Shown in pieces: positions 31,159 to 59,079 of a stretch of 64,000 bases of DNA. A program made the translations under genes and the position numbers. Position 1 is the stretch's first letter. Every line of letters starts with the position of its first letter. The notes beneath the pieces are model-generated. The model was not told the origin of the DNA. It ran no database searches and was given only the letters and a program-made list of their open reading frames with translations. The DNA is from a virus (taxonomy: Duplodnaviria > Caudoviricetes): IMG/VR virus record IMGVR_UViG_3300030117_007612, positions 1 through 64,000 of that record; one strand, 5' to 3'.

Positions 31159-31327
31159 GCGCACAAAAGTTTATCCCGGCGCCGACCTGCCTTTGCAAAG
31201 CAATTTCTATATTATTAGAAAAATTGACGAAAAGAATATTTCGGTGGGCGCTGTTGTTGTTTCGTCCACTTGTCTTGGGTGGCTTTTACTGCTAGCATAT
31301 GCGGGAATTGCTGCTAGCTTTTCTTGA
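31130..31327 (+). CDS. small protein with C-terminal TM segment
   Basis: GGAG upstream; hydrophobic C-terminus. Confidence 0.35.
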   Translation: MKPNLTPERKRTKVYPGADLPLQSNFYIIRKIDEKNISVGAVVVSSTCLGWLLLLAYAGIAASFS

Positions 31328-31352
31328 CATTATCTATATGTTAAGTTATAAT
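31324..31352 (+). promoter_or_regulatory. consensus sigma70 promoter for tRNA cluster
   Basis: TTGACA-N17-TATAAT, 8 nt before tRNA-Arg. Confidence 0.85.
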
Positions 31353-32791: not shown

Positions 32792-34129
32792 ATGAGAAAG
32801 AAAAATTACGTAATTGACACCAGTGTTTATTTAACAGATTCTGAGTCAATAAAAAGTTTTGGAAACAATGACATCATCATCCCCCTGAAGGTCTTGGAAG
32901 AGATTGATTGTCACAAGAAAAGGCAAGATAATGTTGGCGCGAATGCGCGTCGAATTATAAGGTTTTTGGATAATTTGTGTCAAAAGGGAGACCTTAGCAA
33001 GGGTGTAAGAATTGAAAAAGGAAAGGGAATCGTATCTGTAAAATCCCTAAACGATGTAGAGTTAAAGTTAAATTCTCTGACACCCAACCTTAACCAAGAT
33101 GTACCAGACCATATTATTGTCGCGACGGCACTTACTGTAAAAAGTGAACAGCCAAATCGAAAAACTGTTATGGTGACAAATGATATTAATATGAGAGTTA
33201 TATGCAACTCTTTAGGATTAGAGTGTGAAGAATATAACCCCGCACAAGTTGTTGAAAACATAGAAAGATTATACACAGGATTTTCGTCCATCTTAGTTGA
33301 CGAACAGACAGTTGATCAACTTTATTCGGGTGAAGAATTAATTTTAGATCAGGAATTAAAGAATGTGTGCCCAAATGAATATTTAATGCTGATTTCAAAC
33401 ACAAATGAAAAAAAGACAGCTCTTGCTCGATATTTGGGGCCTGAAACAGCCTTGAGAAGAATTTCAAAGTTCAAAAAAGGAATATGGGGAGTTACGTCTA
33501 GAAACAAAGAGCAATTATTTGCCCTAGATTTGCTTATGGACCCCACTGTGCCAATAGTCACTCTGGTGGGTAAGGCTGGCTCCGGCAAGACGCTCTGCGC
33601 CATAGCAGCCGGCCTTGAGCAGGTAATGAGTAGTGCCGGCGATTCTAAAGCATATAAAAGAATGATTGTGTCCCGACCGGTCCAACCTTTAGGAAAGGAC
33701 ATAGGATTTCTTCCGGGCACTCTCGAAGACAAGATGACCCCATGGTTGACTCCAATTCAAGACAATTTGAAATTTTTAATGGGCGACGATCGTGCAACAT
33801 TAGATATGTATATGCAAAAAGGCATGATAGAAATTGAAGCACTAACATATATTCGAGGAAGATCTATATCAAACGCATTTATTATTATAGATGAGGCTCA
33901 GAATCTATCTAGTCACGAATTAAAAACAATTATTACGCGCGTCGGAGAAGGAACAAAAATTGTCTTAACCGGCGACATCGAACAGATTGATAGTCCATTC
34001 GTTGATGAAACTACGAATGGCTTGACATATGCAATTGAAAAATTTAAAAATCATACGTTAGCTGGTCACGTAACCTTACATAAGGGAGAGCGCTCCAAGG
34101 TTGCATCACTGGCGGCGAGAATACTATAA
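32792..34129 (+). CDS. phoH: PhoH family protein with N-terminal PIN domain
   Basis: VIDTSV PIN start; GKAGSGKT, YIRGRS, IIDEAQN, TGDIEQID. Confidence 0.92.
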   Translation: MRKKNYVIDTSVYLTDSESIKSFGNNDIIIPLKVLEEIDCHKKRQDNVGANARRIIRFLDNLCQKGDLSKGVRIEKGKGIVSVKSLNDVELKLNSLTPNLNQDVPDHIIVATALTVKSEQPNRKTVMVTNDINMRVICNSLGLECEEYNPAQVVENIERLYTGFSSILVDEQTVDQLYSGEELILDQELKNVCPNEYLMLISNTNEKKTALARYLGPETALRRISKFKKGIWGVTSRNKEQLFALDLLMDPTVPIVTLVGKAGSGKTLCAIAAGLEQVMSSAGDSKAYKRMIVSRPVQPLGKDIGFLPGTLEDKMTPWLTPIQDNLKFLMGDDRATLDMYMQKGMIEIEALTYIRGRSISNAFIIIDEAQNLSSHELKTIITRVGEGTKIVLTGDIEQIDSPFVDETTNGLTYAIEKFKNHTLAGHVTLHKGERSKVASLAARIL

Positions 34130-47521: not shown

Positions 47522-48486
47522 AAAAAGCATTAGTATGTGGAGCCGGCGGATTTATCGGCGGCCATCTTGTAAAATTTTTAAAAGAGAAGGGATATTGGGT
47601 CCGCGGAGTAGATTTAAAATTAAATGAGTTTGCTCCGATTAGCGATATTGCCGATGATTTTGTCGTTGGTGATTTGCGCGACATAGAAGTCATCAGAGCA
47701 GTTATTGATGAAGATATGGATGAAGTATATCAACTGGCCGCTGACATGGGAGGAGCCGGTTTTGTATTTACTGGCGACAATGATGCTGATATTATGCATA
47801 ATTCTGCACTCATTAACTTGAATGTTGCTCATGAAGCAGTTAAAAAGAACGTCAAAAGAGTGTTCTATTCGTCATCGGCATGCATGTATCCAGAGCACAA
47901 TCAGTTGGACCCTGATAATCCCAATTGTACAGAAGACTCAGCATATCCAGCAGATCCGGACTCAGAATATGGTTGGGAGAAGTTGTTCAGTGAAAGAGTA
48001 TTCTTGGCGTTTATGAGAAACCATGATTTAGAAGTCCGTGTTGCTCGCTATCACAACATCTTTGGCCCAGAAGGCACATGGCAGGGAGGCCGCGAGAAAG
48101 CCCCTGCAGCGCTCTGTAGGAAGGTTGCCAACTGTGAAGACGGCGGAGAGATAGAAGTCTGGGGTGACGGAACACAGACGCGTTCTTTCTTATATGTCAG
48201 CGAGTGTGTTGAGGCCACATATCGCCTAATGCAATCAGAATTTACAGGCCCGGTAAATATTGGCTCTGAAGAAATGATTAGTATTAATGATTTTATTGAT
48301 ATGATTGCAGATATCGCCGGCAAAGAAGTAGTGAAAAAGCACATCCCCGGCCCAATTGGTGTTCGTGGTAGAAATTCCGACAACAAGCTATACGAAGAGA
48401 AAGTTGGCTGGGTTGTTTCTCAACCGTTGAGAGAAGGTATAGAAAAAACATACGCTTGGATACAAAAACAGATTGACAATTCATAG
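47518..48486 (+). CDS. GDP-mannose 3,5-epimerase-like SDR
   Basis: Start GTG 47518; GAGGFIG, QLAADMGG.GF, SSACMYP, YGWEKL, EKAPAA.CRK, GVRGRNSDN. Confidence 0.85.
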   Translation: MKKALVCGAGGFIGGHLVKFLKEKGYWVRGVDLKLNEFAPISDIADDFVVGDLRDIEVIRAVIDEDMDEVYQLAADMGGAGFVFTGDNDADIMHNSALINLNVAHEAVKKNVKRVFYSSSACMYPEHNQLDPDNPNCTEDSAYPADPDSEYGWEKLFSERVFLAFMRNHDLEVRVARYHNIFGPEGTWQGGREKAPAALCRKVANCEDGGEIEVWGDGTQTRSFLYVSECVEATYRLMQSEFTGPVNIGSEEMISINDFIDMIADIAGKEVVKKHIPGPIGVRGRNSDNKLYEEKVGWVVSQPLREGIEKTYAWIQKQIDNS

Positions 48487-48501
48487 AATTGTTATTATAA
48501 T
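48473..48501 (+). promoter_or_regulatory. consensus sigma70 promoter inside glycan island
   Basis: TTGACA-N17-TATAAT, then AAGGAG SD. Confidence 0.8.
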
Positions 48502-48519
48502 ATATAAAAAGGAGATGTT

Positions 48520-49143
48520 ATGTCTAATGTATTAGTGTGTGGTCGTGGAGAATCTTTAAACACAATCGGAGAACTAAAGGGCGATTATGATTGTGTCATA
48601 TTGCTTAATGAATTTAATCGTTTCGCCCGAGAGAGCCCCCAGATAGCCGAATTTCTACAAGGTAAAAAAATTATCCAGTTCCTGAACATAACCGAGGGAG
48701 GTCTTGATCAAGAATTTATTAATTATTTTAATATTCGTGACGTGTATGTAACGCGCTTAGGTCCAGATGGTAAAGATTTTGCGTCGTGGTGGCGTCAGCC
48801 TAGGCACCACCGGGTACCCGAATCATTCGGAATACAGTGCAGGTACCAACCACCGGAACTGGAACCTTATATGAATATTGTTGAAAATTCCTCTGATGTT
48901 GCTTTGTTGTTTTCTTTGTTGTCTTTAAATGCTAAAAACATTGATATTATCGGTGTTGATTTCTATGAAGCAGAGTATTTCCTAGGACATAGCGAGCCAG
49001 ACATACAGGACGAAGACGATACAAAGCGCATCATGGGTGCTCACAAGAAGATAGTTTCTTTATTCCCAGAGACAAATTTTAGGTATTATACAAGATCTTC
49101 TTTTGATGCTGAAAAGGAAAATTGCGTTTCTGTGAGAGTGTGA
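48520..49143 (+). CDS. GT42/MAF-like (sialyltransferase-fold) protein
   Basis: VLVCGRGESL, N after first strands, SSD.A, IDIIGVDFY; resembles Cst-type GNGPSL...SGIDFY. Confidence 0.45.
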   Translation: MSNVLVCGRGESLNTIGELKGDYDCVILLNEFNRFARESPQIAEFLQGKKIIQFLNITEGGLDQEFINYFNIRDVYVTRLGPDGKDFASWWRQPRHHRVPESFGIQCRYQPPELEPYMNIVENSSDVALLFSLLSLNAKNIDIIGVDFYEAEYFLGHSEPDIQDEDDTKRIMGAHKKIVSLFPETNFRYYTRSSFDAEKENCVSVRV

Positions 49144-49754
49144 TGTCATTTGTCGATGAAGATCATAAATTGTGCTTCATACACGTCCCAAAGGCTGCTG
49201 GCACCAGTGTGTCTTCGGCGTTAAAAAAAAATTTACTGGCTGTGCATCGATGCAGCGCTGATCGGTGGTCGGGCAGCGGATGTAGTACATTATTAGACTA
49301 TCAGAAAGATTTCAACAGACTCCCTGACTGGTCGTTTGCGATAATTAGGAATCCTTACGAGAGGTGCTTGTCTGACTGGACTTTCACACGATGCGCCGTT
49401 CTTCCCGAACTTCGGTACCGAGATGACTGGAGAGAATATTTGGATAATTGTCAAAGTTTGAATTGGAGCGCTTTACATCTCGCCGGCGATGATTCCGCAT
49501 ATGTCGGTGCGTGCCCGTCTCATTGTTTTGTTTCTATTAATGGTGAAATAAAGGTTGACACATTAATCAAAATGGAAAATATAAACAAAGTGCCACAAAC
49601 TATATGGGAAAAAACTGGTATCAGATTAGGCAAGATTCCTAGTCTAAATATAACCAACTCAATTAGGTTTATGGAACTATTAATGGACGAGGAATCAAAA
49701 AGAATTATACGAGAGATATATGCAAAAGACTTTGAATTATATGAGGGCGTGTGA
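49143..49754 (+). CDS. sulfotransferase family 2, paralogue A
   Basis: FIHVPKAAGTS (5'-PSB); RNPYERCLS (3'-PB). Confidence 0.8.
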   Translation: MSFVDEDHKLCFIHVPKAAGTSVSSALKKNLLAVHRCSADRWSGSGCSTLLDYQKDFNRLPDWSFAIIRNPYERCLSDWTFTRCAVLPELRYRDDWREYLDNCQSLNWSALHLAGDDSAYVGACPSHCFVSINGEIKVDTLIKMENINKVPQTIWEKTGIRLGKIPSLNITNSIRFMELLMDEESKRIIREIYAKDFELYEGV

Positions 49755-50485
49755 TGTCATTTGTTTCCGAAGACCATAAATTGTGTTTTATTCACATTCC
49801 AAAGTCTGCCGGCACAAGTATATCTAATAGTTTAGTTTCATTGCTGCGGTGCCTTCCCGGACAATCCCCCCCATGGGGAAGCCGCGGAATTGATGCCATC
49901 TTTGCCGGTCGCGGCCATGCTACAATCGCCGATTATTATACCATGTTTGATTCGTTGCCCGGCTGGTCCTTTTCAATGATTAGAGATCCGCACAAAAGAT
50001 GTATCTCAGCCTTCATGGTGCATCCGGATTATGGCAGGAAAATGATGACGAAAAGTTTTGCAAATAATGAATCTATGCTGTATTTTGCATGGGAAAAGTA
50101 TCTAGACTATTGCGACGTGATCTGCAAAGGGGATCCCCTTCTCGGGGGTGTCAGTACTCAGCCGGAATTGCTTATGAAAAATAGCCTACTTAATCGCAAT
50201 GGTAACAGGGTGTCTAATTTGGGCCCCGCAATACATGCTTTGCCTTGCTCATATTTTCTTTCAATTGATAATAAGGTGGTTGTAAATAATCTTATTAAAA
50301 TGAAGAATATTGAAAAAGTACCAAAAATTATTTCGAAAAATACCGGCATTAAAATAGGCGATATTTCTCATGAAAATAAATCCAATTCAAGTGATTTTGT
50401 GAAACTTCTTTTGGATAAAAAATCTAAACAACGCATACAAGAAATATATGCAAAAGACTTTGAATTATACGAGGGGGCCGAATGA
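49754..50485 (+). CDS. sulfotransferase family 2, paralogue B
   Basis: FIHIPKSAGTS; RDPHKRCIS. Confidence 0.8.
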   Translation: MSFVSEDHKLCFIHIPKSAGTSISNSLVSLLRCLPGQSPPWGSRGIDAIFAGRGHATIADYYTMFDSLPGWSFSMIRDPHKRCISAFMVHPDYGRKMMTKSFANNESMLYFAWEKYLDYCDVICKGDPLLGGVSTQPELLMKNSLLNRNGNRVSNLGPAIHALPCSYFLSIDNKVVVNNLIKMKNIEKVPKIISKNTGIKIGDISHENKSNSSDFVKLLLDKKSKQRIQEIYAKDFELYEGAE

Positions 50486-52179
50486 GTAATAGAATTTTAC
50501 ATCCAAATGAATACATAAAGGATTTTCCATATGATTCCTTTGATGGAATGAAGATCACGTTTATTAACATGCCGCTGCGAGAAACAGCGCTTCCAAATGT
50601 TCCGCCTGAAGGGCCGGGAATCTTGGCTGCAATTGCAAGACGCTACGGCGCCGAACCCCACATCCTCGATTTAAATGGATACAGAATCAAAGATGAGTTA
50701 GCCAAAAAGCGCGGCTTACCAAATGGTCGACATATGACCTATGCTGAAGCAGAGGCGCTGATTGTTAAGCATTTAAACAATGTGGGAGATCAAGATGTCA
50801 TTGCCTTCTCGGGCAAAATTACAACACTGAGATGGCAAGAAGAAGTTGCAAAGATTGTTAAGAGGCATCAGCCAGATTGCTTCTTGGTTTCCGGCAACGG
50901 CTTGGCAACAGAAATTAAAACAGGTCTTTTCAAATGGATTCCTGAACTCGATGCCATTGGCAGATCAGAGGGCGATGACATTATTTTGCTCATTCTAAAT
51001 GATGCCATGGCAATTAAGAAGTATGGATTCGCGAAGGCGCTGAATTCAGATAAGCTCAGTCCATATTATCTCGGCGAGATTGACGGCAAGCATCGATTTA
51101 GGTATGAAGGAAATAGGCCTATAAACCTAGATAGTTTGCCGTCTGCTGCATTAGATTTGCTGGAATCGGATCCTTATGGCCATAACGTTTTAGAAGATTA
51201 TATTAATGTTCCGGTATGGGGCTTGGGAGCAAATAATAGCTCGGCAACACCATTTACTATGAAGAGAAGCCTAACCACCGTAAGCAGTCGTGGCTGTCCA
51301 TACGCGTGTGCATTCTGCTATCGAGGCTCGCAGGGTGAAAGAAACTATGGCGTAAGAGCAGTGGAAGATATTGCAACACAAGTACTGGGATACGTTGATA
51401 AGTACAACCTTGATTTCATAGGATTTCCAGATGACAACTTCGCAGTTAGCAAAAGGCGAGTTGCACAATTTCCAAAAGTGTTTAAAGAGTACGGATTAGA
51501 AAACATGCGCTGGGGTACTCATACTCGAATGGATGAAGCCGATGCGCGCATATTTGATATGTCTGAGTCTGGCTGCATTTACATTGGCTTCGGCGCCGAG
51601 TCTGCATCTGAACATACCCTGACGCTGATGAAGAAGGGTGGGTTTATTCTTAAGAACGGCCTTGTAACAAAAAACGTTAATGGCCGAAATTACGAGTTTC
51701 CGAAGACAATGGTTGATGCAATTGTAAATTGTAAAGAAGCAAATATTCACCCGAACTGCACTTGGATCATGGCATACCCCGGAGAGGATCTACAACATTT
51801 CCAAACCAGTGCTGCTTTCATACTTTGGCAAAGAGAATTCTGGACCAAGGGTCTGGCGCCGGGAACTGCTGAATACGACAATGCCTTCGCGGCAGTCAAC
51901 AGTAAAATGTTCACAGCAACAGCATACCCCGGCACTGAAATGTGGAATGTAGTCAAGCCCCAACTACAGAAACACTTTGAGATATCCTTTGACTTTTTAG
52001 GTAATCCTGTTTGTGATGATAACTTTCATCGTTACGTTTTGGAACTAGATGATGCCACAAAAGTCTTGAACGATAAAGACGGCAATCCAGTGAATTTTGG
52101 AGAAATGCCGATGGACACTTTCTTGCAGGCCCGGGAATATGTTGATAATGATCAAATTGAAAAGGTATTAGACTTATGA
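50482..52179 (+). CDS. cobalamin-dependent radical SAM enzyme (class B methyltransferase-like)
   Basis: N-terminal B12-binding-like domain; SSRGCPYACAFC; DDNF; GAESAS; YPGT. Confidence 0.85.
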   Translation: MSNRILHPNEYIKDFPYDSFDGMKITFINMPLRETALPNVPPEGPGILAAIARRYGAEPHILDLNGYRIKDELAKKRGLPNGRHMTYAEAEALIVKHLNNVGDQDVIAFSGKITTLRWQEEVAKIVKRHQPDCFLVSGNGLATEIKTGLFKWIPELDAIGRSEGDDIILLILNDAMAIKKYGFAKALNSDKLSPYYLGEIDGKHRFRYEGNRPINLDSLPSAALDLLESDPYGHNVLEDYINVPVWGLGANNSSATPFTMKRSLTTVSSRGCPYACAFCYRGSQGERNYGVRAVEDIATQVLGYVDKYNLDFIGFPDDNFAVSKRRVAQFPKVFKEYGLENMRWGTHTRMDEADARIFDMSESGCIYIGFGAESASEHTLTLMKKGGFILKNGLVTKNVNGRNYEFPKTMVDAIVNCKEANIHPNCTWIMAYPGEDLQHFQTSAAFILWQREFWTKGLAPGTAEYDNAFAAVNSKMFTATAYPGTEMWNVVKPQLQKHFEISFDFLGNPVCDDNFHRYVLELDDATKVLNDKDGNPVNFGEMPMDTFLQAREYVDNDQIEKVLDL

Positions 52180-52961
52180 AAAAAGGTATTTTTATAACTG
52201 TGCGCACAAATTCTTCTCGACTGCCCAACAAAGCTTTGATGAAGATATGTGGCAAGCCTACAATTCAATATGCAATTGATCGAGCAAAACAATCCTCATG
52301 TGCGGATGTAATCGTGTTGTGCACCAGTACATCAAACAATGATGACGCATTGTGCGAAATAGCCCACAAGAATGGAATTGAATGTTTTCGCGGAAGCCTG
52401 ATTGATAAGATTGATCGTTGGCTTCAGGCGGCACTTGAATACAAAGTGGATTACTTTGTTAACATCGATGGCGACGATCTTTTTTGCGAACCAGAATTGA
52501 TTGATATGGCATTCGAGCAGCACGATAAAGAAGATCACGACTTTGTAAAGTGCGACGAAGAGAATCTTGTAGTGGGGGCATTCACCCTTGGCGCCAAGAC
52601 AACTGCAATACAGAAAGTGTGTGATATAAAAGACACTGAGGACACCGAGGCCGCGTGGCTTTATTTTTCTGACATGGATATTTTTAAAACTTCCTTGCTA
52701 GAGAACGTTCCAGAATCCTACAACAGACCAGACATCAGAGCAACGTTGGATTATTATGATGACTTTCTTTTCTTTAGTAATATAATTGAATACTTTGGCG
52801 CGCAAAAAAAATCTAGATTTTCTTTATTAGATGTGGTAAAATATGTTGACGAAAACCCAAGAGTGTTGGATATCAACCGAAATTGCCAGCAAGAATATTT
52901 AAACAATCAACAAAAATTAACAAAGCTAATTGTAAAAAAGGAGTATAATGAACGAGCATAA
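52176..52961 (+). CDS. sugar cytidylyltransferase (SpsF/NeuA/KdsB-like)
   Basis: VRTNSSRLPNKAL, IDGDD. Confidence 0.8.
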   Translation: MKKGIFITVRTNSSRLPNKALMKICGKPTIQYAIDRAKQSSCADVIVLCTSTSNNDDALCEIAHKNGIECFRGSLIDKIDRWLQAALEYKVDYFVNIDGDDLFCEPELIDMAFEQHDKEDHDFVKCDEENLVVGAFTLGAKTTAIQKVCDIKDTEDTEAAWLYFSDMDIFKTSLLENVPESYNRPDIRATLDYYDDFLFFSNIIEYFGAQKKSRFSLLDVVKYVDENPRVLDINRNCQQEYLNNQQKLTKLIVKKEYNERA

Positions 52962-53934
52962 ATTGAAAGAAAGGGTGACGTACCAGTCCGGAGAATGGGT
53001 TCCGGAATCGCAAGCTTCCCTCCATATTTATGATTCACAGTTCATGTTTGGTGACGGTGTCTTTGAGATGGCAAGAACTTTTAACCACAAGTTTTTCATT
53101 CTTGATGAACATATCGACAGACTATTTCGCAGCATGCGATATCTGCAGATCCCGATTACCAAGACCAAACAGGAAGTTCGAGATTTGTGTGAAGAGGCCC
53201 TTGAAAGAAACATAGAACATTTCAAGCAATCTGGCGGTGGATTTACCGAAGAGTGTCGTATATTAATAAATGTATCTAGAGGACCTTTATCGATTTATCG
53301 CGAAGTGTTTGAATTAACTAAGGGTGAGAAATGGAATGAACCAAATTGGATTATCAATGTTTGGCCACTTAGCCGAACTTCCAAGACTCTATCACATTAT
53401 TTCGAAACAGGGGCAAATGCAATTATACCCTCACAAAGACAGATCCCTTCGCGACTGCTTGAGAACAAAGTAAAAAATAGAAGTAGAATGCACTATCAAA
53501 TGGCAAACTTACAAGTTAAACCCTTCGGAAAAGATGCAATACCTCTGCTTTTAGATGAAGACGGCTTTGTAACTGAGAGCACCGGAGCAAACTTTTTGAT
53601 GATCAAGGACGGTAAGCTAATCGCACCTGAGTTAAGAAACATGTTGCGAGGCTCTAGTATGATGTATATTTTGGAAACGATCGCACCTCAAATTAATTTG
53701 GAGGTTGTGCACAAGAATTTTGAGCCTTACGATGTCATGCAGTGTGACGAGGCAATGTTTACAGGTACGTTCGTCAATTTGCTCCCTTGTAACCGTTTAA
53801 ACGGCGAATATTTCAATAATAACGTAAAAAACAGCCCAATTGGGCCAATAACACGCCAAATTTGCGACACTTGGTCAGAAAATGTGGGTCTAAATTTCAT
53901 CGAACAAATGCAATATTGGGCTAATAATTGGTAA
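52948..53934 (+). CDS. PLP-dependent aminotransferase class IV
   Basis: GDGVFEM.R, HIDRL, catalytic K in VKN, ESTGAN, LRG, EAMFTGT. Confidence 0.85.
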   Translation: MNEHKLKERVTYQSGEWVPESQASLHIYDSQFMFGDGVFEMARTFNHKFFILDEHIDRLFRSMRYLQIPITKTKQEVRDLCEEALERNIEHFKQSGGGFTEECRILINVSRGPLSIYREVFELTKGEKWNEPNWIINVWPLSRTSKTLSHYFETGANAIIPSQRQIPSRLLENKVKNRSRMHYQMANLQVKPFGKDAIPLLLDEDGFVTESTGANFLMIKDGKLIAPELRNMLRGSSMMYILETIAPQINLEVVHKNFEPYDVMQCDEAMFTGTFVNLLPCNRLNGEYFNNNVKNSPIGPITRQICDTWSENVGLNFIEQMQYWANNW

Positions 53935-53938
53935 ATTT

Positions 53939-54622
53939 ATGAATAAAAGAATCATCATTACAGGCTCAGAGGGCCTTTTAGGAACAGAAATAAGCAGATA
54001 TTTGGAAGAATCGGGCAACACTGTGATTCGGTGCGACCTACAATTGGGTCATGATCTAACTGATGAGCAATTTGTTAAAGATTTTTTTGAAAAAAACAAG
54101 GCAGACTGCCTAGTAAACACTTATGCTATTAATCCACATGTTGGTACTGAGGACGAATCGACAAATATGTTCAATATCGACCTAGAATCTTTGAATCAAT
54201 ACCTTCAAGTTAACCTACTTAGCTTGTTTTCTGTATGCAGGGAGTTTGCCAAGAGCAATGAGAATGGTTCGATAGTTAATTTTTCATCCACTTATGGTGT
54301 TGTTTCCCCCAATCCTGCGTTATATGATGAAGGAAAGGAAAAACACATCGGCTATTGCATATCAAAATCAGGTGTAATCCAAATGACACGATACCTAGCG
54401 GTGCATCTGGCGCCCAAGTTCCGTGTAAATTGTGTTGCGCCCGGAGGATGTGGCATGAACACTGGCGAAGAATTTGTAAAGTTGTATGCTGATAAGACGC
54501 CAATGAAAAGAATGATGAACGTCGATGAACTAAACGGAATAATTGAATATCTTTGCTCTGATAAATCAACCTATACCACGGGTGCAAACATTAACGTCGA
54601 CGGAGGCTGGACGATATGGTAA
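53939..54622 (+). CDS. short-chain dehydrogenase/reductase
   Basis: TGSEGLLG, SSTYG, YCISK, RVNCVAPGG, VDGGW. Confidence 0.88.
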   Translation: MNKRIIITGSEGLLGTEISRYLEESGNTVIRCDLQLGHDLTDEQFVKDFFEKNKADCLVNTYAINPHVGTEDESTNMFNIDLESLNQYLQVNLLSLFSVCREFAKSNENGSIVNFSSTYGVVSPNPALYDEGKEKHIGYCISKSGVIQMTRYLAVHLAPKFRVNCVAPGGCGMNTGEEFVKLYADKTPMKRMMNVDELNGIIEYLCSDKSTYTTGANINVDGGWTIW

Positions 54623-55464
54623 ACTTTAAGGACATTCAAAAACCCTATTTTATTGGTGAGATTGGAATCAACCACAATGGAGATTTACAAATTGCAAAGA
54701 AGCTGATTGACGCTGTTTGCGCGTGTAGTTGGGATTGTGCAAAATTTCAAAAAAGAAATCCTGATGTTTGCGTACCAGAACATCAAAAGAGCGTACCGAG
54801 GGAAACACCTTGGGGCACAATGACATATCTGGATTATAAACATCGTATTGAATTTGAGAAAAAGGAATATGATTATATTGATAATTACTCAAAGCAAAAA
54901 CCAATTGACTGGACCGCGTCAGTGTGGGATTTAGATAGTCTAGATTTTATGACTCAATATGACGTACCCTTCTTAAAAATTCCATCTGCTAAGATCACAA
55001 GCTTGGATTTGTTGGCCGAGTCGGCAAAGTCTGGTATACCAATTATTATGTCTACTGGAATGTCAGAGCTTCGCGAGGTAGACACTGCCGTCAATGAAGT
55101 TTTAAAACACACCGACAACCTTGTCCTGATGCACACTAATTCAAGCTATCCTTCTCCAGAAAGTGAATTAAACTTGAGCTTGATCCCATTTTATAAAGAA
55201 AGATATGATTGTGTTATTGGTTATTCGGGCCACGAAATGGACCTAGAGCCAACAGTAGTGGCAGTAGTTTTGGGAGCAAAGGTGATTGAGCGACACATTA
55301 CACTGTCACATGACATGTGGGGAACAGATCAAAAATCAAGTTTGGAGGTTATTGCAATGGATATGCTATACAAAAGAATCAAAAACATTGATATAATGAT
55401 AGGTGAACCAATTAAGCATGTCACAAAAAGTGAAGTTCCAATCAAGAAAAAATTAAGAGGATAG
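54616..55464 (+). CDS. neuB: nonulosonate (N-acetylneuraminate-family) synthase, short form
   Basis: EIGINHNG, AKFQKR, KIPSA, MSTGM, GYSGHE, IERHITL. Confidence 0.88.
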   Translation: MVNFKDIQKPYFIGEIGINHNGDLQIAKKLIDAVCACSWDCAKFQKRNPDVCVPEHQKSVPRETPWGTMTYLDYKHRIEFEKKEYDYIDNYSKQKPIDWTASVWDLDSLDFMTQYDVPFLKIPSAKITSLDLLAESAKSGIPIIMSTGMSELREVDTAVNEVLKHTDNLVLMHTNSSYPSPESELNLSLIPFYKERYDCVIGYSGHEMDLEPTVVAVVLGAKVIERHITLSHDMWGTDQKSSLEVIAMDMLYKRIKNIDIMIGEPIKHVTKSEVPIKKKLRG

Positions 55465-55465
55465 C

Positions 55466-55801
55466 ATGGTAATTTACGTAGATATTGATGAAACAATTTG
55501 CAATACCCCTGAGAGTAGGGACTATTCTGAAGCAAAACCAATTAAAGAAAACATCAACAAAATTAATGATTTATATGATGAAGGGCATGAAATTGTCTAT
55601 TGGACTGCTCGTGGCACGTTAACCGGGAAAGATTGGACAGAAGTAACCAAAAAGCAATTTAAAGAGTGGGGAGTTAAGTATCACGATTTAAAGCTCAAGA
55701 AGCCTTTCTACGATCTTTTTATTGATGACCGGGCAATTAATTCTGATATGTATTTTCAAAATAATAACAGAAAGGGAGACGTAAATTGGCAATGGACTTG
55801 A
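55466..55801 (+). CDS. small HAD phosphatase-like protein
   Basis: VDIDETIC, WTARG, KP..D.FIDDRA. Confidence 0.8.
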   Translation: MVIYVDIDETICNTPESRDYSEAKPIKENINKINDLYDEGHEIVYWTARGTLTGKDWTEVTKKQFKEWGVKYHDLKLKKPFYDLFIDDRAINSDMYFQNNNRKGDVNWQWT

Positions 55802-56082
55802 GACAATACTACAAATATTATCTTACCCTCCACCAAAACATAAATTGCCGGCGACTTCACTTTGCGGGTCAATGGGTTACACTGTTCTTTTTATTTTGGG
55901 TATTGTATACAAATACTCTATACTTGTTGCCCTTGGCGTTGTTTGTGATATATCCATTTGCATGGACCGGTCATTTCTTTTTTGAAAAAAATGAGCCCGC
56001 TGCTTTTAAGGCGCCAGTCAAGGCCAAGATATGCGATTGGATTATGTTTAAAGATATCATCTTGGGGAGAATTAAAATATGA
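55786..56082 (+). CDS. DUF962/Mpo1-like membrane protein
   Basis: Y...HQ....RRLHF.G, W.GHFFFEKN.PA.F. Confidence 0.7.
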   Translation: MAMDLRQYYKYYLTLHQNINCRRLHFAGQWVTLFFLFWVLYTNTLYLLPLALFVIYPFAWTGHFFFEKNEPAAFKAPVKAKICDWIMFKDIILGRIKI

Positions 56083-56999
56083 TTAACCTGATGCACGTTA
56101 ACGATTACATCATCGACACCAGCAAATTCCGCCCGCTACTACATGATAAGATCGTTGATGAGTTTGAACAAAATATAGCGGACTTTGTTGGGGCTAAGTA
56201 TGCATGCTCATTTCACAGCGCCACAATGGCAATATTCTTAGCGTTGGTTGAAAAGTCTCGGGAGACAATTATAATCCCCAGTGTTATACCACCCGTTGTA
56301 GCAAACGCCATCCTGTGTTCTGGTCATGGTCTAGGCTATCGTGACGATGTAAATTGGGTCGGAAACTCCTACATCCTTCACCAATTTGAGGATCATAAAA
56401 TTATTGATTCTGCCCAGCAGCTTACAGAGAACCAGTTTAAAGAACAGGCTAATGATGAGGACTTAATGATTTTTAGTTTTTATCCTACAAAGCCTGTAGG
56501 TAGTAGCGATGGTGGCCTAATTGTGTCTAATGACAAGGAAAAGATTGACCGGTTGAGAATTTTATCTAGAAATGGAATGTCTCTTGAAAAGAATAGCTGG
56601 GAAAGAAACATACTTTTGCCCGGCTGGAAGATGTATATGAATTCAATTCAGGCTTATATTGCTTATGAAAACTTTAAGAAACTTGAATCAAAAACAAAAA
56701 GGTATAATGAAATTAGAGAAGAGTATAATAGCGCCTTTGACAAAAACAATACAAGTCTCCATCTTTATAGATTAAATGTTGAAGATAACGATTCCTTTGT
56801 TTTAGATATGAAAGAGAAAGGAATCCAGTGTGGAATTCATTATAAAGCAATTCACTTAATGGGCGCATACTCTCGGGCCGGCCTAGATTTGCCAAAATCC
56901 GAGCAAGAAAGTAGAACAACGATCAGTATTCCATACCATGAGATGCTCACGGATGAACAGGTGGAGACTGTTATTAAGGAGATTAAAAATGTTATCTGA
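56079..56999 (+). CDS. DegT/DnrJ/EryC1/StrS sugar aminotransferase
   Basis: SAT.A, IDSAQ, FSFYPTK...DGG. Confidence 0.85.
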   Translation: MINLMHVNDYIIDTSKFRPLLHDKIVDEFEQNIADFVGAKYACSFHSATMAIFLALVEKSRETIIIPSVIPPVVANAILCSGHGLGYRDDVNWVGNSYILHQFEDHKIIDSAQQLTENQFKEQANDEDLMIFSFYPTKPVGSSDGGLIVSNDKEKIDRLRILSRNGMSLEKNSWERNILLPGWKMYMNSIQAYIAYENFKKLESKTKRYNEIREEYNSAFDKNNTSLHLYRLNVEDNDSFVLDMKEKGIQCGIHYKAIHLMGAYSRAGLDLPKSEQESRTTISIPYHEMLTDEQVETVIKEIKNVI

Positions 57000-57360: not shown

Positions 57361-58244
57361 TGGCGAGATGCATGGTCACAGGCCATAAAGGCTATATAGG
57401 TTCGAAATTATATCAAGCATTGCTGGATGATGGTCATGATGTAATAGGCATTGATTTAAAAAGTGAAATTCCTCATGACATCTTGGTGGACTTAAAAGAA
57501 GGATCCGACGGAAAATTTCATCCTTATTGGTATAATTTTAAACCAGAGTATATTTTTCATTTAGCTTGTTGGCCAAGAGTTGCATTTAGTATAGAGAAGC
57601 CAGTTGCAACAGCAATAAATAACATTCTTTCCAACTCTATAATGTTAAATTTTGCTAGAAAAGTTGGTTCGGTTAAAAGGTTTATTTATTCTAGCTCTTC
57701 TTCCGTTGTTGGGAATGGTTCTGGCCCCGAGAGTCCGTATGCATTACAAAAATATACAGCCGAGGTGGAGTGCACATTGTATTCTAAGCTTTACGATTTG
57801 GACACTGTCGCTCTTAGGTATTTCAACGTATACTCCCCTGATCAGAAGGTCGACGGGGCATATGCTACGGCTGTTGCGAATTGGATGAAGTTTATTAGAG
57901 AAGGCGAAGATCCCTATATTACCGGAGATGGGGAACAACGAAGAGATATGGTAAATGTTGCGGACGTTGTTTCCGCAAATATATTTGCCATGAATTACCC
58001 AGAGAGCCTTAATGGTCAAGTTTTTGACGTTGGTACAGGCGAGAATATATCGTTAAATGAGCTAAAAGATATCGTAGAAGAACTGCAGCCACATGTTAAT
58101 TTTGAATATAAACCTGAACGCCCGGGCGATGTGCAATTAACTAGGGCAAATACGGAGCCCTTAAAAAAAATAGGATGGCGTGCTAATATTAGTATACGTG
58201 ATGGCATGGTTGAATGCTTCAAGGATTTAGTGAAAGATGTCTGA
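57360..58244 (+). CDS. NAD-dependent epimerase/dehydratase
   Basis: TGHKGYIG, SSSS, SPYALQK, LRYFNVY, RPGD. Confidence 0.85.
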   Translation: MARCMVTGHKGYIGSKLYQALLDDGHDVIGIDLKSEIPHDILVDLKEGSDGKFHPYWYNFKPEYIFHLACWPRVAFSIEKPVATAINNILSNSIMLNFARKVGSVKRFIYSSSSSVVGNGSGPESPYALQKYTAEVECTLYSKLYDLDTVALRYFNVYSPDQKVDGAYATAVANWMKFIREGEDPYITGDGEQRRDMVNVADVVSANIFAMNYPESLNGQVFDVGTGENISLNELKDIVEELQPHVNFEYKPERPGDVQLTRANTEPLKKIGWRANISIRDGMVECFKDLVKDV

Positions 58245-59079
58245 TGTTGTTGGTATTGTTGGTCAAGGTTTTGTTGGCACAGCTATAAGAGAAGGCTTGT
58301 GTCACTTGTTCCAAATTGAAACTTATGATAAGTTCAAGAAAGAAGCGTCTACCTCTTATAGTGTAGAGGAGCTGTGCACGAAAACGAAAATCATATTTGT
58401 ATGCTTACCAACGCCAATGAAAAAAGACGGAACGTGTGATTTATCCCTTATACAAAACACAATTGAAAAAATAGACAAAGTATCAAACAAGCACGTAGCT
58501 GTTATAAAATCAACAGTGCCGCCGGGGACAACCAAGAAATTAAACAAGATGTGCAATGATTTGCAGGTAGTCTTTAATCCTGAATTTTTGACGGAAGCAA
58601 ATTACATTGATGATTTTAAGAATCAGAATAGAATTATTATAGGTGGACCCCGGCCGGCCTCAACAATTGTCAAGAATCTATACAGAAAAGCCTTCCAACA
58701 AACGCCAATAGTAAAAACAGGCTCAGATACTGCTGAGATGGTAAAGTACTTTACAAACTGTTTTCTTGCAATGAAGGTTAGTTTTGCTAATGAAATCAAA
58801 CAAGTATGTGATGCACACAGAATTGATTTTGACAAAGTGGTAGAATACGCTCTTTATGATCAAAGAATAGGAAATACACACTTATCAGTTCCCGGTCCTG
58901 ATGGCAAAAATGGATTTGGCGGCTCTTGTTTCCCCAAAGATTTAAACGCGTTGATACAGTTTGCGCTCGCTAGCGAGATTGATCCGAAAGTTTTGTCTGC
59001 AATTTGGAATAAAAATTTGGAAGTTAGACCCGAAAAAGATTGGGAATTGTTAAAGGGGAGGGCGGTATCTGATGCCTGA
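58237..59079 (+). CDS. UDP-glucose/GDP-mannose dehydrogenase family (lacks C-terminal domain)
   Basis: GQGFVG, VCLPTP, KSTVPPG, NPEFL, AE..KY..N, GGSCFPKD. Confidence 0.88.
   Translation: MSDVVGIVGQGFVGTAIREGLCHLFQIETYDKFKKEASTSYSVEELCTKTKIIFVCLPTPMKKDGTCDLSLIQNTIEKIDKVSNKHVAVIKSTVPPGTTKKLNKMCNDLQVVFNPEFLTEANYIDDFKNQNRIIIGGPRPASTIVKNLYRKAFQQTPIVKTGSDTAEMVKYFTNCFLAMKVSFANEIKQVCDAHRIDFDKVVEYALYDQRIGNTHLSVPGPDGKNGFGGSCFPKDLNALIQFALASEIDPKVLSAIWNKNLEVRPEKDWELLKGRAVSDA

What the first reader, a model, noticed from the sequence alone, without database searches (positions are those of the whole stretch)
48473..55801. Separately promoted nonulosonate module with B12 radical SAM and class IV aminotransferase
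Seen: a consensus promoter starts a run of GT42-like, two sulfotransferases, B12 radical SAM, cytidylyltransferase, class IV PLP enzyme, SDR, NeuB and HAD, mostly with overlapping stops and starts. Knowledge: NeuB + HAD + CMP-transferase + GT42 is a complete synthesis, activation and transfer route (KDN-like via the 9-phosphate). Known sugar aminotransferases are DegT-type, not class IV, and class B radical SAM enzymes methylate unactivated carbons. Inference: a new C-methylated and/or aminated, sulfated nonulosonic acid made with host cobalamin.
Basis: partly seen in the sequence, partly recalled or inferred. Interest (0 to 1): 0.65.

Follow-up and report, generated by a model that had tools for sequence, protein, structure and literature searches.

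The report
Phage pathway for modified sialic-like sugar
An uncultured 203-kb marine relative of phage T4 carries a compact gene set for making, activating and transferring a sialic-acid-like sugar; two of its enzymes (a radical SAM enzyme and a class IV aminotransferase) are not known to act on such sugars, and the same genes sit together in many uncultured bacteria, so the product is probably a new sugar.

Summary
A perfect sigma-70 promoter at 48473-48501 precedes ten tightly packed genes. They encode a GT42-like transferase, two paralogous sulfotransferases, a class-B-type radical SAM enzyme (rSAM), a cytidylyltransferase (CT), a class IV aminotransferase, an SDR, a short NeuB without the SAF domain, and a small HAD phosphatase.

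- **rSAM synteny:** the rSAM family lies beside NeuB in all 8 related viral contigs. In 50 cellular loci with adequate flanks it lies beside CT in 41, NeuB in 33 and a KdsC-type phosphatase in 27. These loci come from Patescibacteria, cultured Roseibium, DPANN archaea and others.
- **Aminotransferase synteny:** in 42 metagenome contigs of at least 7 kb its clade lies beside CT in 38, NeuB in 36 and SDRs in 31.
- **Displacement:** two phages carry a DegT-type aminotransferase in its slot.

Most likely reading: a KDN-type route through a phosphorylated intermediate, CMP activation, an SDR/aminotransferase amination, a radical step (probably C-methylation) and GT42-like transfer.

Cobalamin use, methylation, the aminated position and the sulfation target are all unproven. 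The best fold match of the rSAM is AprD4, which lacks cobalamin. I found no paper on this partnership. The scan has noted the same cassette on other DNA (e1-792419, e1-798781, e1-5657492, e1-1002049, e1-5808080).

The parts
48473..48501 (+). Consensus sigma-70-type promoter (TTGACA, 17 nt, TATAAT), followed by an AAGGAG ribosome-binding site
   Evidence: 12/12 match. 3 such sites in 64 kb against 0.07 expected. Sequence read. Not conserved in relatives.
48520..49143 (+). ORF1, 207 aa: GT42-like (CstII/CstI-type) CMP-sugar transferase candidate, a short form
   Evidence: No Pfam, PHROG or NCBIfam hit. In a family-profile search of solved structures the top 9 hits are all GT42 sialyltransferases, E 5e-4 to 4e-3, sharing GxGxSL, G(I/V)DFY and a His aligned with the His in CstII's HYIGHSK stretch. 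AF2 pLDDT 85.6. Foldseek top hits are CstII, CstI and a P. multocida sialyltransferase, probability 0.97-1.0, TM up to 0.58.
49143..49754 (+). Sulfotransferase 1 (Sulfotransfer_2). The ATG at 49143 overlaps the ORF1 stop; the mechanical ORF begins at TTG 49122.
   Evidence: PF03567 46.7 bits against cut-off 22. phrog_3347. PKxAGTS and RxPxxRxxS PAPS-binding-type motifs read.
49754..50485 (+). Sulfotransferase 2, a tandem paralogue of the first
   Evidence: PF03567 54.6 bits. N and C termini nearly identical to ST1. A third copy lies at about 169.2-169.9 kb of the genome.
50482..52179 (+). Radical SAM enzyme, 565 aa, with class-B architecture (N-terminal Rossmann/B12-binding-like domain plus rSAM core); reaction unknown
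   Evidence: PF04055 53.9 bits; CxxxCxxC at residues 272-279. Weak matches to B12-rSAM methylase models. PF02310 E 0.023 here, but 29 of 30 family members match. AF2 pLDDT 92.6. VIA Z: AprD4 24.7, OxsB 23.5, TsrM 22.0. 69-75% identical across viral variants.
52176..52961 (+). Cytidylyltransferase (CMP-ulosonic acid synthetase family)
   Evidence: PF02348 73.2 bits. Below all KdsB and PseF cut-offs. Best solved relative 6oew. A CT gene follows the rSAM gene on the same strand within 150 bp in 29 cellular loci.
52948..53934 (+). Class IV (fold-type IV) PLP aminotransferase, 328 aa
   Evidence: PF01063 136 bits. Below the BCAT, DAAT and ADCL cut-offs. PLP-binding Lys (VKN) and Glu (TESTG) aligned with BCAT 5cm0 and invariant in the clade. 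Clade syntenic with CT and NeuB.
53939..54622 (+). Short-chain dehydrogenase/reductase (classical SDR, PtmA/PRK09186-like)
   Evidence: PF13561 109 bits. NF006619 136 bits and PtmA model 77 bits, both below cut-off.
54616..55464 (+). Short NeuB-family synthase, 282 aa, lacking the C-terminal SAF/antifreeze-like domain
   Evidence: PF03102 215 bits. Matches positions 2-274 of the 329-position NeuB_NnaB model, at 219 bits against a cut-off of 400. Best solved relative is 6ncs, 290 aa.
55466..55801 (+). Small capless HAD phosphatase, 111 aa
   Evidence: DxDxT at residues 6-10 and an FIDD motif. phrog_1238 E 1.7e-30. TIGR01689 capsule-biosynthesis phosphatase 29.8 bits, below cut-off. Adjacent to NeuB in the viral loci. 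Replaced by a KdsC-type HAD in Roseibium and CPR loci.

Best explanation
The module is a phage-borne, compacted version of a widespread but unstudied cassette for a CMP-activated, tailored nonulosonic acid.

Proposed steps:
1. The short NeuB condenses PEP with a host hexose 6-phosphate, most simply mannose 6-phosphate, to give a 9-phosphate nonulosonate of the KDN type.
2. The small HAD phosphatase removes the phosphate.
3. The cytidylyltransferase makes the CMP-sugar.
4. The SDR oxidises one hydroxyl to a ketone and the class IV aminotransferase converts it to an amine.
5. The class-B-type radical SAM enzyme, whose gene is coupled to the cytidylyltransferase gene, carries out a separate radical modification. 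This is most likely C-methylation of an unactivated carbon such as the terminal hydroxymethyl, by analogy with Fom3 and GenK.
6. The GT42-like protein transfers the sugar to a phage-chosen acceptor.
7. The two sulfotransferases sulfate the sugar or the glycan using host PAPS.

Shown here: gene identities, conserved catalytic motifs and the synteny. Inferred: every substrate, the order of steps 3-5, cobalamin use and the acceptor.
For: Family assignments and motifs.

Phosphorylated route: a HAD phosphatase sits next to NeuB in every viral variant. A non-homologous KdsC-family phosphatase takes that place in Roseibium, CPR and metagenome cassettes. The phage has no NeuC-type 2-epimerase.

Independent tailoring sub-modules on a NeuB/HAD/CT core:
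- rSAM only: L002, L003, L007 and Roseibium.
- Aminotransferase plus SDR only: L090, L091.
- Both: the window, L004, L005, L008.
- A DegT aminotransferase in the class IV slot: L006 and Kyanoviridae record MH319754.

Counts:
- rSAM family, 50 cellular loci with at least 5 kb on both sides: CT 41, NeuB 33, KdsC 27, SDR 21. The rSAM-to-CT gap is 150 bp or less in 29 loci.
- Aminotransferase clade, 42 contigs of at least 7 kb: CT 38, NeuB 36, SDR 31. CT lies directly upstream in 20.

The rSAM is 69-75% identical whether or not an aminotransferase is present, so it acts on a part or stage common to both products.

Methylase leaning: the best sequence models are B12-rSAM methyltransferases (PhpK 57 bits; Sden_1168 across residues 40-468). 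29 of 30 family members hit PF02310. In R. aggregatum the rSAM-CT pair lies 2 kb from cbiX, cbiC and a corrin methylase gene.

GT42-like transferase.
Against: - No chemistry is known for any member of the cassette.
- The rSAM's top structural neighbour is AprD4 (Z 24.7, rmsd 3.1 over 402 residues), a cobalamin-free diol dehydratase, tied within about 1 Z unit with OxsB.
- The window protein's own B12-domain match is below the Pfam cut-off.
- A 2026 review notes that AprD4 and ArsL fall in the B12-rSAM similarity network without binding cobalamin (PMC12931638).
- The family is common in Patescibacteria, which are usually reported to lack cobalamin synthesis (my own knowledge, not tested).
- The aminotransferase and SDR could act on the hexose phosphate before condensation.
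- No N-acyltransferase is present for the new amine.
- Sulfotransferases are absent from all relatives except a distant homologue in L130.
- The aldose substrate of a SAF-less NeuB is unknown.
Confidence: 0.6

Rival explanations
1. The radical SAM enzyme is not a cobalamin-dependent methylase. It is an AprD4-like 1,2-diol dehydratase, or another radical dehydrogenase or epimerase, that creates a carbonyl on the ulosonate side chain. The SDR then reduces this carbonyl (deoxygenation, as with AprD4/AprD3) or the aminotransferase aminates it. The product would be a deoxy or amino-deoxy nonulosonic acid, not a C-methyl one.
For: AprD4 is the top VIA-align match (Z 24.7, 402 of 454 residues) and has the highest target-normalised TM in Foldseek (0.70). 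The PF02310 match of the window protein is sub-threshold. SDRs accompany the rSAM in 21 of 50 cellular loci. The review states that AprD4-like proteins sit in this similarity network without binding cobalamin.
Against: The rSAM occurs with NeuB/HAD/CT but with no SDR or aminotransferase in Roseibium and in L002, L003 and L007, where a bare carbonyl product would be left unprocessed. The AprD4 sequence model scores only 27 bits, against 57 and 51 for the methylase models. The Z difference from OxsB and TsrM is within the tie range. The R. aggregatum pair lies near cob genes.
Confidence: 0.25
2. The SDR and the aminotransferase (and possibly the rSAM) act before condensation, on a hexose 6-phosphate, so that NeuB condenses an amino sugar phosphate with PEP. 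Amination happens without any nucleotide-sugar intermediate, and the cytidylyltransferase only activates the finished sugar.
For: There are no UDP- or GDP-sugar enzymes inside the module and no NeuC. Cellular cassettes add a xylose-isomerase-like TIM-barrel 'sugar phosphate isomerase' next to the aminotransferase in 28 of 42 contigs. DegT enzymes normally need NDP-sugars, which could explain the recruitment of a different aminotransferase fold.
Against: CT lies directly upstream of the aminotransferase in 20 of 42 contigs and in the phage. A DegT enzyme can take the same slot. NeuB identity does not split cleanly between variants with and without an aminotransferase.
Confidence: 0.2
3. The class IV enzyme is an ordinary branched-chain or D-amino-acid aminotransferase carried as a metabolic gene, or it supplies an amino or keto acid side group. 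It does not touch the sugar.
For: The best sequence and structure relatives are archaeal BCATs (E about 1e-31). The PLP lysine, the glutamate and the Arg aligned with the carboxylate-binding Arg of BCATs are kept.
Against: It scores below every BCAT, DAAT and ADCL cut-off. Its clade sits inside NeuB/CT/SDR cassettes in about 90% of contigs of at least 7 kb. It is displaced by a DegT sugar aminotransferase at the same position. More distant homologues (30-37% identity) in Planctomycetota lack this context, so the context is specific to this clade. No ligase for attaching an amino acid is present in the module.
Confidence: 0.07
4. The module makes an already known sugar (KDN, Neu5Ac, legionaminic or pseudaminic acid), and the extra enzymes serve neighbouring glycan genes.
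For: NeuB + HAD + CT alone equals the known KDN route. The module lies within a roughly 25-kb glycan island with many other sugar genes.
Against: The rSAM, aminotransferase and SDR are interleaved with CT and NeuB with overlapping stop and start codons. They co-occur with these genes across phyla. NeuB and CT fall well below the equivalog cut-offs for NeuB, PseI, KdsB and PseF. The Leg/Pse route's dehydratase and acetyltransferase are absent from the module.
Confidence: 0.05

Closest known systems
KDN pathway of Bacteroides thetaiotaomicron (KDN-9-P synthase BT1714, KDN-9-P phosphatase BT1713, CMP-KDN synthetase), and the animal Neu5Ac-9-P route; recalled from the literature, not re-read here
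   Same: A NeuB-family synthase, a dedicated HAD phosphatase and a CTP-dependent activating enzyme encoded together. No NeuC-type epimerase. In cellular versions the phosphatase is of the KdsC/KDN-9-P phosphatase family.
   Different: The NeuB here lacks the SAF domain. The phosphatase is a different small HAD. The cassette adds a radical SAM enzyme, a class IV aminotransferase, an SDR, a GT42-like transferase and sulfotransferases. The substrate is untested.
Fom3 with the Fom1 cytidylyltransferase domain (fosfomycin) and GenK/GenD1 (gentamicin): class B radical SAM C-methyltransferases
   Same: A Rossmann (B12-type) domain plus rSAM core. Tight pairing with a cytidylyltransferase, as for Fom3, which methylates a CMP-linked substrate (my knowledge). 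GenK shows that this class can methylate a sugar carbon bearing OH or NH2; it is listed among the Csp3 methylases in PMC12931638.
   Different: There is no PEP mutase in the phage. Sequence similarity to any characterised methylase is low (57 bits or less). Cobalamin binding and methyl transfer are untested. No ulosonic acid substrate is known for this class.
AprD4/AprD3 (apramycin C3' deoxygenation): radical SAM 1,2-diol dehydratase plus reductase
   Same: Best structural match (Z 24.7). It acts on a sugar diol. Its partner is a reductase (AprD3, my knowledge), and an SDR accompanies the rSAM in many loci here.
   Different: Only 16% identity. The AprD4 model scores 27 bits. The rSAM here also occurs without any SDR.
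DegT/PseC/LegC-type sugar aminotransferases and the KdnB/KdnA oxidation-transamination pair that makes Kdo8N in Shewanella (my knowledge)
   Same: The logic of oxidising a hydroxyl and then transaminating it on an ulosonic acid or its precursor. A DegT enzyme occupies the same slot in L006 and MH319754.
   Different: The enzyme here is fold-type IV (PF01063), a fold for which I know of no sugar aminotransferase and found no paper. The oxidant is an SDR, not a metal-dependent alcohol oxidase.
GT42 sialyltransferases CstII/CstI of Campylobacter jejuni
   Same: N-terminal GxGxSL, G(I/V)DFY and a His at the position aligned with the His of CstII's HYIGHSK stretch. The top fold matches are GT42 enzymes.
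   Different: 207 aa against about 260-290 aa. No hit to the Pfam model. TM only 0.4-0.58. Found only in the phage versions, not in the cellular cassettes. One phage (L090) carries a Maf/MptE-like protein instead.

Membership tests
NeuB family (PF03102) nonulosonate synthases | Pfam NeuB TIM-barrel domain above the gathering score | tested here: met
   215.1 bits against cut-off 22.1, model positions 1-240 of 241.
N-acetylneuraminate synthase NeuB/NnaB (TIGR03569) and pseudaminic acid synthase PseI (TIGR03586) | Score above the equivalog cut-off, and a C-terminal SAF/antifreeze-like domain | tested here: not met
   219.4 bits against 399.65, and 161.5 bits against 340.25. The match ends at model position 274 of 329 and the protein is 282 aa, so there is no SAF domain.
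Class B (cobalamin-dependent) radical SAM enzymes | CxxxCxxC [4Fe-4S]/SAM motif in a radical SAM core | tested here: met
   PF04055 53.9 bits; C272, C276 and C279 are invariant in the family.
Class B (cobalamin-dependent) radical SAM enzymes | N-terminal cobalamin-binding Rossmann domain | tested here: inconclusive
   PF02310 E 0.023, 15 bits against cut-off 32.1 in the window protein; 29 of 30 aligned relatives match at E of 0.1 or less. The fold matches OxsB, TsrM, CysS and TokK, but equally AprD4, which has the domain without cobalamin.
Class B (cobalamin-dependent) radical SAM enzymes | Cobalamin bound, and methyl transfer (SAH plus 5'-dA formed) | not testable with these tools
   Needs anaerobic reconstitution.
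Class IV (fold-type IV) aminotransferases, PF01063 | Pfam domain above cut-off, with the PLP lysine and the pyridine-N glutamate present | tested here: met
   136.1 bits against 28.5. Lys in VKNRS and Glu in TESTG align with BCAT 5cm0 and are invariant in 7 viral and 10 mixed sequences.
Branched-chain (IlvE), D-amino-acid and ADC-lyase equivalogs | Score above the NCBIfam cut-off | tested here: not met
   Best scores are 135 against 363 (PRK08320), 119 against 246 (ilvE_I), 86 against 277 (DAAT) and 87 against 308 (ADCL).
CMP-ulosonic acid synthetases (CTP_transf_3, PF02348) | Pfam domain above cut-off | tested here: met
   73.2 bits against 22.6. It is below the KdsB and PseF equivalog cut-offs (62 against 193; 39 against 206), so it is not assignable to either.
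GT42 sialyltransferases | Sequence and fold similarity to CstII/CstI with the CMP-binding motifs | tested here: inconclusive
   No Pfam hit. A family profile places GT42 chains as the top 9 hits at E 5e-4 to 4e-3. Foldseek probability is about 1 but TM is 0.4-0.58.
HAD phosphatases | DxDxT nucleophile motif and a distal DD motif | tested here: met
   DIDET at residues 6-10 and FIDD near residue 85. Substrate not tested; TIGR01689 29.8 bits against 162.
Sulfotransfer_2 (PF03567) carbohydrate sulfotransferases | Pfam domain above cut-off and PAPS-binding motifs | tested here: met
   46.7 and 54.6 bits against 22. PKxAGTS and RxPxxRxxS motifs read.
Phosphonate (Fom3-type) pathway | PEP mutase present | tested here: not met
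   No PF13714 match in the 203-kb genome; the control genomes matched.

The most novel reading that the evidence does not exclude
The cassette makes a sugar class not yet described: a nonulosonic acid extended or branched by radical C-methylation (for example a ten-carbon 9-C-methyl derivative) and aminated by the first fold-type IV aminotransferase known to act on a sugar. A marine T4-like phage adds sulfation and its own GT42-like transferase, to decorate its virion or remodel the host surface early in infection.
Probability: 0.3. Interest if true: 0.8.

Novelty: new variant of a known kind. Interest (0 to 1): 0.68.

Why it matters
Nonulosonic acids shape the recognition of cell surfaces by phages, immune systems and lectins. 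Their known bacterial routes (Neu, Leg, Pse, KDN) use a fixed enzyme set. This cassette adds two enzyme types with no known role in this chemistry.
- It is not a curiosity of one phage. The rSAM version recurs in Patescibacteria, DPANN archaea, several other bacterial phyla and cultured Roseibium. The aminotransferase version recurs in sediment, groundwater, freshwater and marine contigs of up to 539 kb.
- It offers two directly testable new enzyme functions.
- It offers a cultivable model, Roseibium litorale, with a minimal NeuB-KdsC-rSAM-CT set.
- It is a case of a phage carrying its own acidic-sugar decoration system under a perfect consensus sigma-70 promoter.

Tried and rejected
- Neighbourhoods came from the search for related loci, the genome search and my own ORF and BLAST/jackhmmer scripts instead.
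- **Phosphonate idea (rSAM + CT as Fom3/Fom1):** rejected, no PEP mutase in the genome.
- **Cyanophage assumption:** no psbA and no cobS, so 'host cobalamin' cannot be tied to a cyanobacterial host.
- **NeuC-dependent ManNAc route:** no Epimerase_2 in the genome.
- **GenBank phage records:** no tblastn match to the rSAM, and only distant class IV enzymes. NeuB matches come only from two uncultured records.
- **Planctomycetota aminotransferase homologues (30-37% identity):** not in NulO context, so uninformative.
- **Phylum search around the Nitrospirae handle:** covered only 2 genomes.
- **Conserved promoter in relatives:** not found.
- **Fold comparison:** could not separate a methylase from a dehydratase.
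- **Literature:** searches for radical SAM or class IV aminotransferase together with nonulosonic or sialic acid synthase gave nothing relevant.
- **Not attempted:** a tree placing this NeuB among characterised NeuB, LegI, PseI and KDN-9-P synthases, because reference sequences could not be fetched by reference.

Full report
**What is there.** The window is the first 64 kb of a 203-kb IMG/VR virus record that CheckV rates complete; earlier notes of this scan call it a relative of phage T4. It lacks psbA, cobS, PEP mutase, NeuC and APS kinase.

Between 48.5 and 55.8 kb, ten + strand genes follow a perfect TTGACA-17-TATAAT promoter and an AAGGAG ribosome-binding site. Three such perfect sites occur in the window against 0.07 expected.

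Pfam, NCBIfam and PHROG scans give these assignments:
- an unassigned 207-aa ORF1;
- two Sulfotransfer_2 paralogues with PAPS-binding-type motifs;
- a 565-aa radical SAM protein with CxxxCxxC;
- a CTP_transf_3 cytidylyltransferase (CT);
- a class IV aminotransferase;
- a classical SDR;
- a 282-aa NeuB that stops before the SAF domain;
- a 111-aa HAD with DxDxT.

Most junctions overlap. The run continues past 55801 into further sugar genes: Mpo1-like, DegT, FdtA, an epimerase and a UDP-glucose dehydrogenase-like gene. The 3' boundary is therefore functional, not transcriptional.

**ORF1.** A 12-sequence family profile places GT42 sialyltransferases (CstII, CstI, a Pasteurella enzyme) as its nine best solved matches, at E 5e-4 to 4e-3. 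They share GxGxSL, G(I/V)DFY and a His aligned with the His of CstII's HYIGHSK stretch. The AlphaFold model (pLDDT 85.6) finds the same enzymes first in Foldseek. The 'GT42-like' label is reasonable, but the evidence is of moderate strength.

**The radical SAM enzyme.** The model is confident (pLDDT 92.6) and has the Rossmann-plus-rSAM architecture of class B enzymes.
- By Foldseek the best matches are OxsB, TsrM, AprD4, CysS and TokK.
- By VIA-align the order is AprD4 (Z 24.7), OxsB (23.5), TsrM (22.0), MgmA (20.8), CysS (20.2) and TokK (17.0).
- Sequence models favour methylases weakly: PhpK 57 bits, Sden_1168 51 bits across both domains, AprD4 27 bits.
- The Pfam B12-binding domain is sub-threshold in this protein but is found in 29 of 30 aligned relatives.
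- A 2026 review lists no ulosonic-acid enzyme among the B12-rSAMs. It warns that AprD4 and ArsL sit in the same similarity network without binding cobalamin (PMC12931638).

The architecture is therefore settled. Cobalamin use and the reaction are not.

**Synteny of the radical SAM enzyme.**

*Viral contigs.* Eight IMG/VR contigs carry a 69-75% identical rSAM, always with NeuB and the HAD and usually with an ORF1 homologue.
- Five also have CT, the class IV aminotransferase and the SDR.
- L006 has a 404-aa DegT aminotransferase exactly where the class IV gene sits.
- L002, L003 and L007 have only a short CT and neither aminotransferase nor SDR.

*Abundance.* The family is abundant. It has 831 relatives at E of 1e-10 or less in the 90% clusters, and the best 120 are at least 70% identical. 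It is nevertheless tight, with 54 clusters at 50% identity reaching E of 1e-30 or less.

*Cellular genomes.* A scan of one genome per species found 80 loci at 36-71% identity. They come from Patescibacteria, Roseibium, Polyangiaceae, Planctomycetota, Nitrospirae, Acidobacteriota and DPANN archaea. Among the 50 loci with at least 5 kb on both sides, a CT lies within 6 kb in 41, NeuB in 33, a KdsC-type HAD in 27, an SDR in 21, a xylose-isomerase-like TIM-barrel protein in 8, and DegT in 7. The class IV enzyme, ORF1 and the sulfotransferases are found in none. The CT gene follows the rSAM gene on the same strand within 150 bp in 29 loci, as it does in the window, where the two overlap by 4 nt.

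*Roseibium.* Cultured Roseibium litorale has the minimal set: ferredoxin-reductase-like protein, NeuB, KdsC, rSAM and CT. In R. aggregatum the rSAM-CT pair lies 2 kb from cbiX, cbiC and a corrin methylase gene. This is a weak hint of a link to cobalamin.

**Synteny of the class IV aminotransferase.** Three more viral contigs carry it with CT and NeuB but without this rSAM. L090 and L091 have CT, aminotransferase, SDR, NeuB and HAD. L092 has NeuB, CT, aminotransferase and then a SPASM-type radical SAM protein.

Homologues at 43-50% identity exist in bacterial MAGs. A metagenome scan with their alignment returned 80 contigs.
- Of the 42 that are at least 7 kb, CT is present in 38, NeuB in 36, SDRs in 31, the TIM-barrel isomerase in 28, KdsC in 14 and the phage-type small HAD in 4.
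- CT lies directly upstream of the aminotransferase in 20 of the 42.
- 30 of 33 associated NeuBs are 272-312 aa, meaning SAF-less.
- One contig (L124) combines the same rSAM family (48% identity) with this set. Several others carry unrelated B12-type rSAMs. L130 has a distant sulfotransferase homologue between CT and the aminotransferase.

The Kyanoviridae record MH319754 has SDR, CT, DegT, NeuB, HAD and a GT42-like gene. This is a second case of DegT standing where the class IV gene stands. More distant class IV homologues in Planctomycetota (30-37% identity) lack this context, so the association is specific to the clade. The PLP lysine, the glutamate and the Arg aligned with the carboxylate-binding Arg of BCATs are conserved. 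The protein scores below every BCAT, DAAT and ADCL cut-off.

**Reading.** The stable core is a short NeuB, a phosphatase and a CT. Two unrelated phosphatase families alternate at the same place, which argues that dephosphorylating an ulosonate phosphate is an obligatory step. This is the logic of the KDN-9-P and Neu5Ac-9-P routes. With no NeuC and no nucleotide-sugar enzymes in the module, a host hexose 6-phosphate is the simplest substrate.

On this core, two tailoring units assort independently: the rSAM, and the aminotransferase with its SDR. The rSAM's sequence is equally conserved whether or not an aminotransferase is present. It therefore acts on a common intermediate or on a part of the sugar that amination does not touch.

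The coupling of the rSAM to the CT recalls Fom3, which needs a cytidylylated substrate (my knowledge). I favour C-methylation, with the terminal carbon as the best guess, at roughly 45-50%. An AprD4-like dehydration or another radical reaction stands at roughly 25-30%.

The SDR-plus-aminotransferase pair most likely oxidises and then aminates a hydroxyl carbon. Whether this happens on the CMP-sugar, the free acid or the hexose phosphate is open. Transamination of the C2 keto group is unlikely, because CT, which needs the anomeric hydroxyl, is the enzyme's most constant neighbour.

The sulfotransferases and the GT42-like transferase are phage-specific additions. Their targets are unknown.

**Novelty.** I found no paper that links a radical SAM enzyme or a fold-type IV aminotransferase with nonulosonic acid synthesis. 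No GenBank phage record contains this rSAM.

The scan itself has met the same cassettes on other DNA. Examples are a CPR bacterium (e1-798781), a large rSAM clade beside NulO genes (e1-792419), Omnitrophota (e1-1002049), and other phages (e1-5657492, e1-5808080). I read these notes after reaching my own conclusions. They agree with them but are not independent evidence.

I class the finding as a new variant of a known kind of pathway, with two candidate new enzyme functions.

Noticed in passing
window 49143-50485; genome about 169198-169884: The two sulfotransferases are tandem paralogues with nearly identical N and C termini. A third Sulfotransfer_2 gene lies about 120 kb away in the same phage. 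The genome has no APS kinase, so PAPS must come from the host.
   Followed up: partly
L092:8866-9684: In a third viral arrangement (SIS-domain protein, NeuB, CT, class IV aminotransferase), the gene after the aminotransferase is a 272-aa SPASM-domain protein with a Cx5Cx2C motif. It may be a BtrN-like radical dehydrogenase standing in for the SDR.
   Followed up: partly
L090:5011-5937 and L090:7687-8430: This phage contig has a Maf/MptE-like (PF01973) protein where others have the GT42-like ORF1. It also has a second, 247-aa NeuB-like gene and a second SDR between the aminotransferase and the main SDR.
   Followed up: no
L051:2961-14588 (Nanoarchaeota MAG): A one-strand operon: FemAB-like, polysaccharide deacetylase, GT4, NeuB, a CT fused to a TylF O-methyltransferase, SDR, KdsC, this rSAM family, a second B12-domain rSAM of 669 aa, and an FkbM methyltransferase. 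It is a heavily methylating version of the cassette.
   Followed up: partly
L047:9947-17601 (Roseibium aggregatum): The rSAM-CT pair occurs without a nearby NeuB, about 2 kb upstream of cbiX, cbiC and a corrin methylase gene and downstream of an NMT1/THI5-type ABC transporter.
   Followed up: partly
window 31324-31352 (+) and 32954-32983 (-): The two other perfect TTGACA/TATAAT promoters in the window.
   Followed up: no
window 55786-56082: A 98-aa Mpo1-like (DUF962, PF06127) gene overlaps the HAD stop. A 61% identical copy follows the HAD in L002 and L003, so it may belong to the unit. Its role is unknown.
   Followed up: no
window 56079-56999 and 58237-59079: The downstream DegT (306 aa) matches only model positions 157-359. 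The UDP-glucose dehydrogenase-like gene (280 aa) lacks the C-terminal domain. Both look shortened compared with their families.
   Followed up: no
L010 (Opitutia MAG) and L078 (Saccharibacteria MAG): These MAG contigs carry phage-like identities (rSAM 71% in L010; NeuB 63% and an epimerase 65% in L078). They may be phage-derived or mis-binned sequence.
   Followed up: no
L012:6820-7656 and many of L115-L194: A xylose-isomerase-like TIM-barrel 'sugar phosphate isomerase/epimerase' plus two SDRs forms a third recurrent sub-module of the cellular cassettes. It is absent from the phage.
   Followed up: partly
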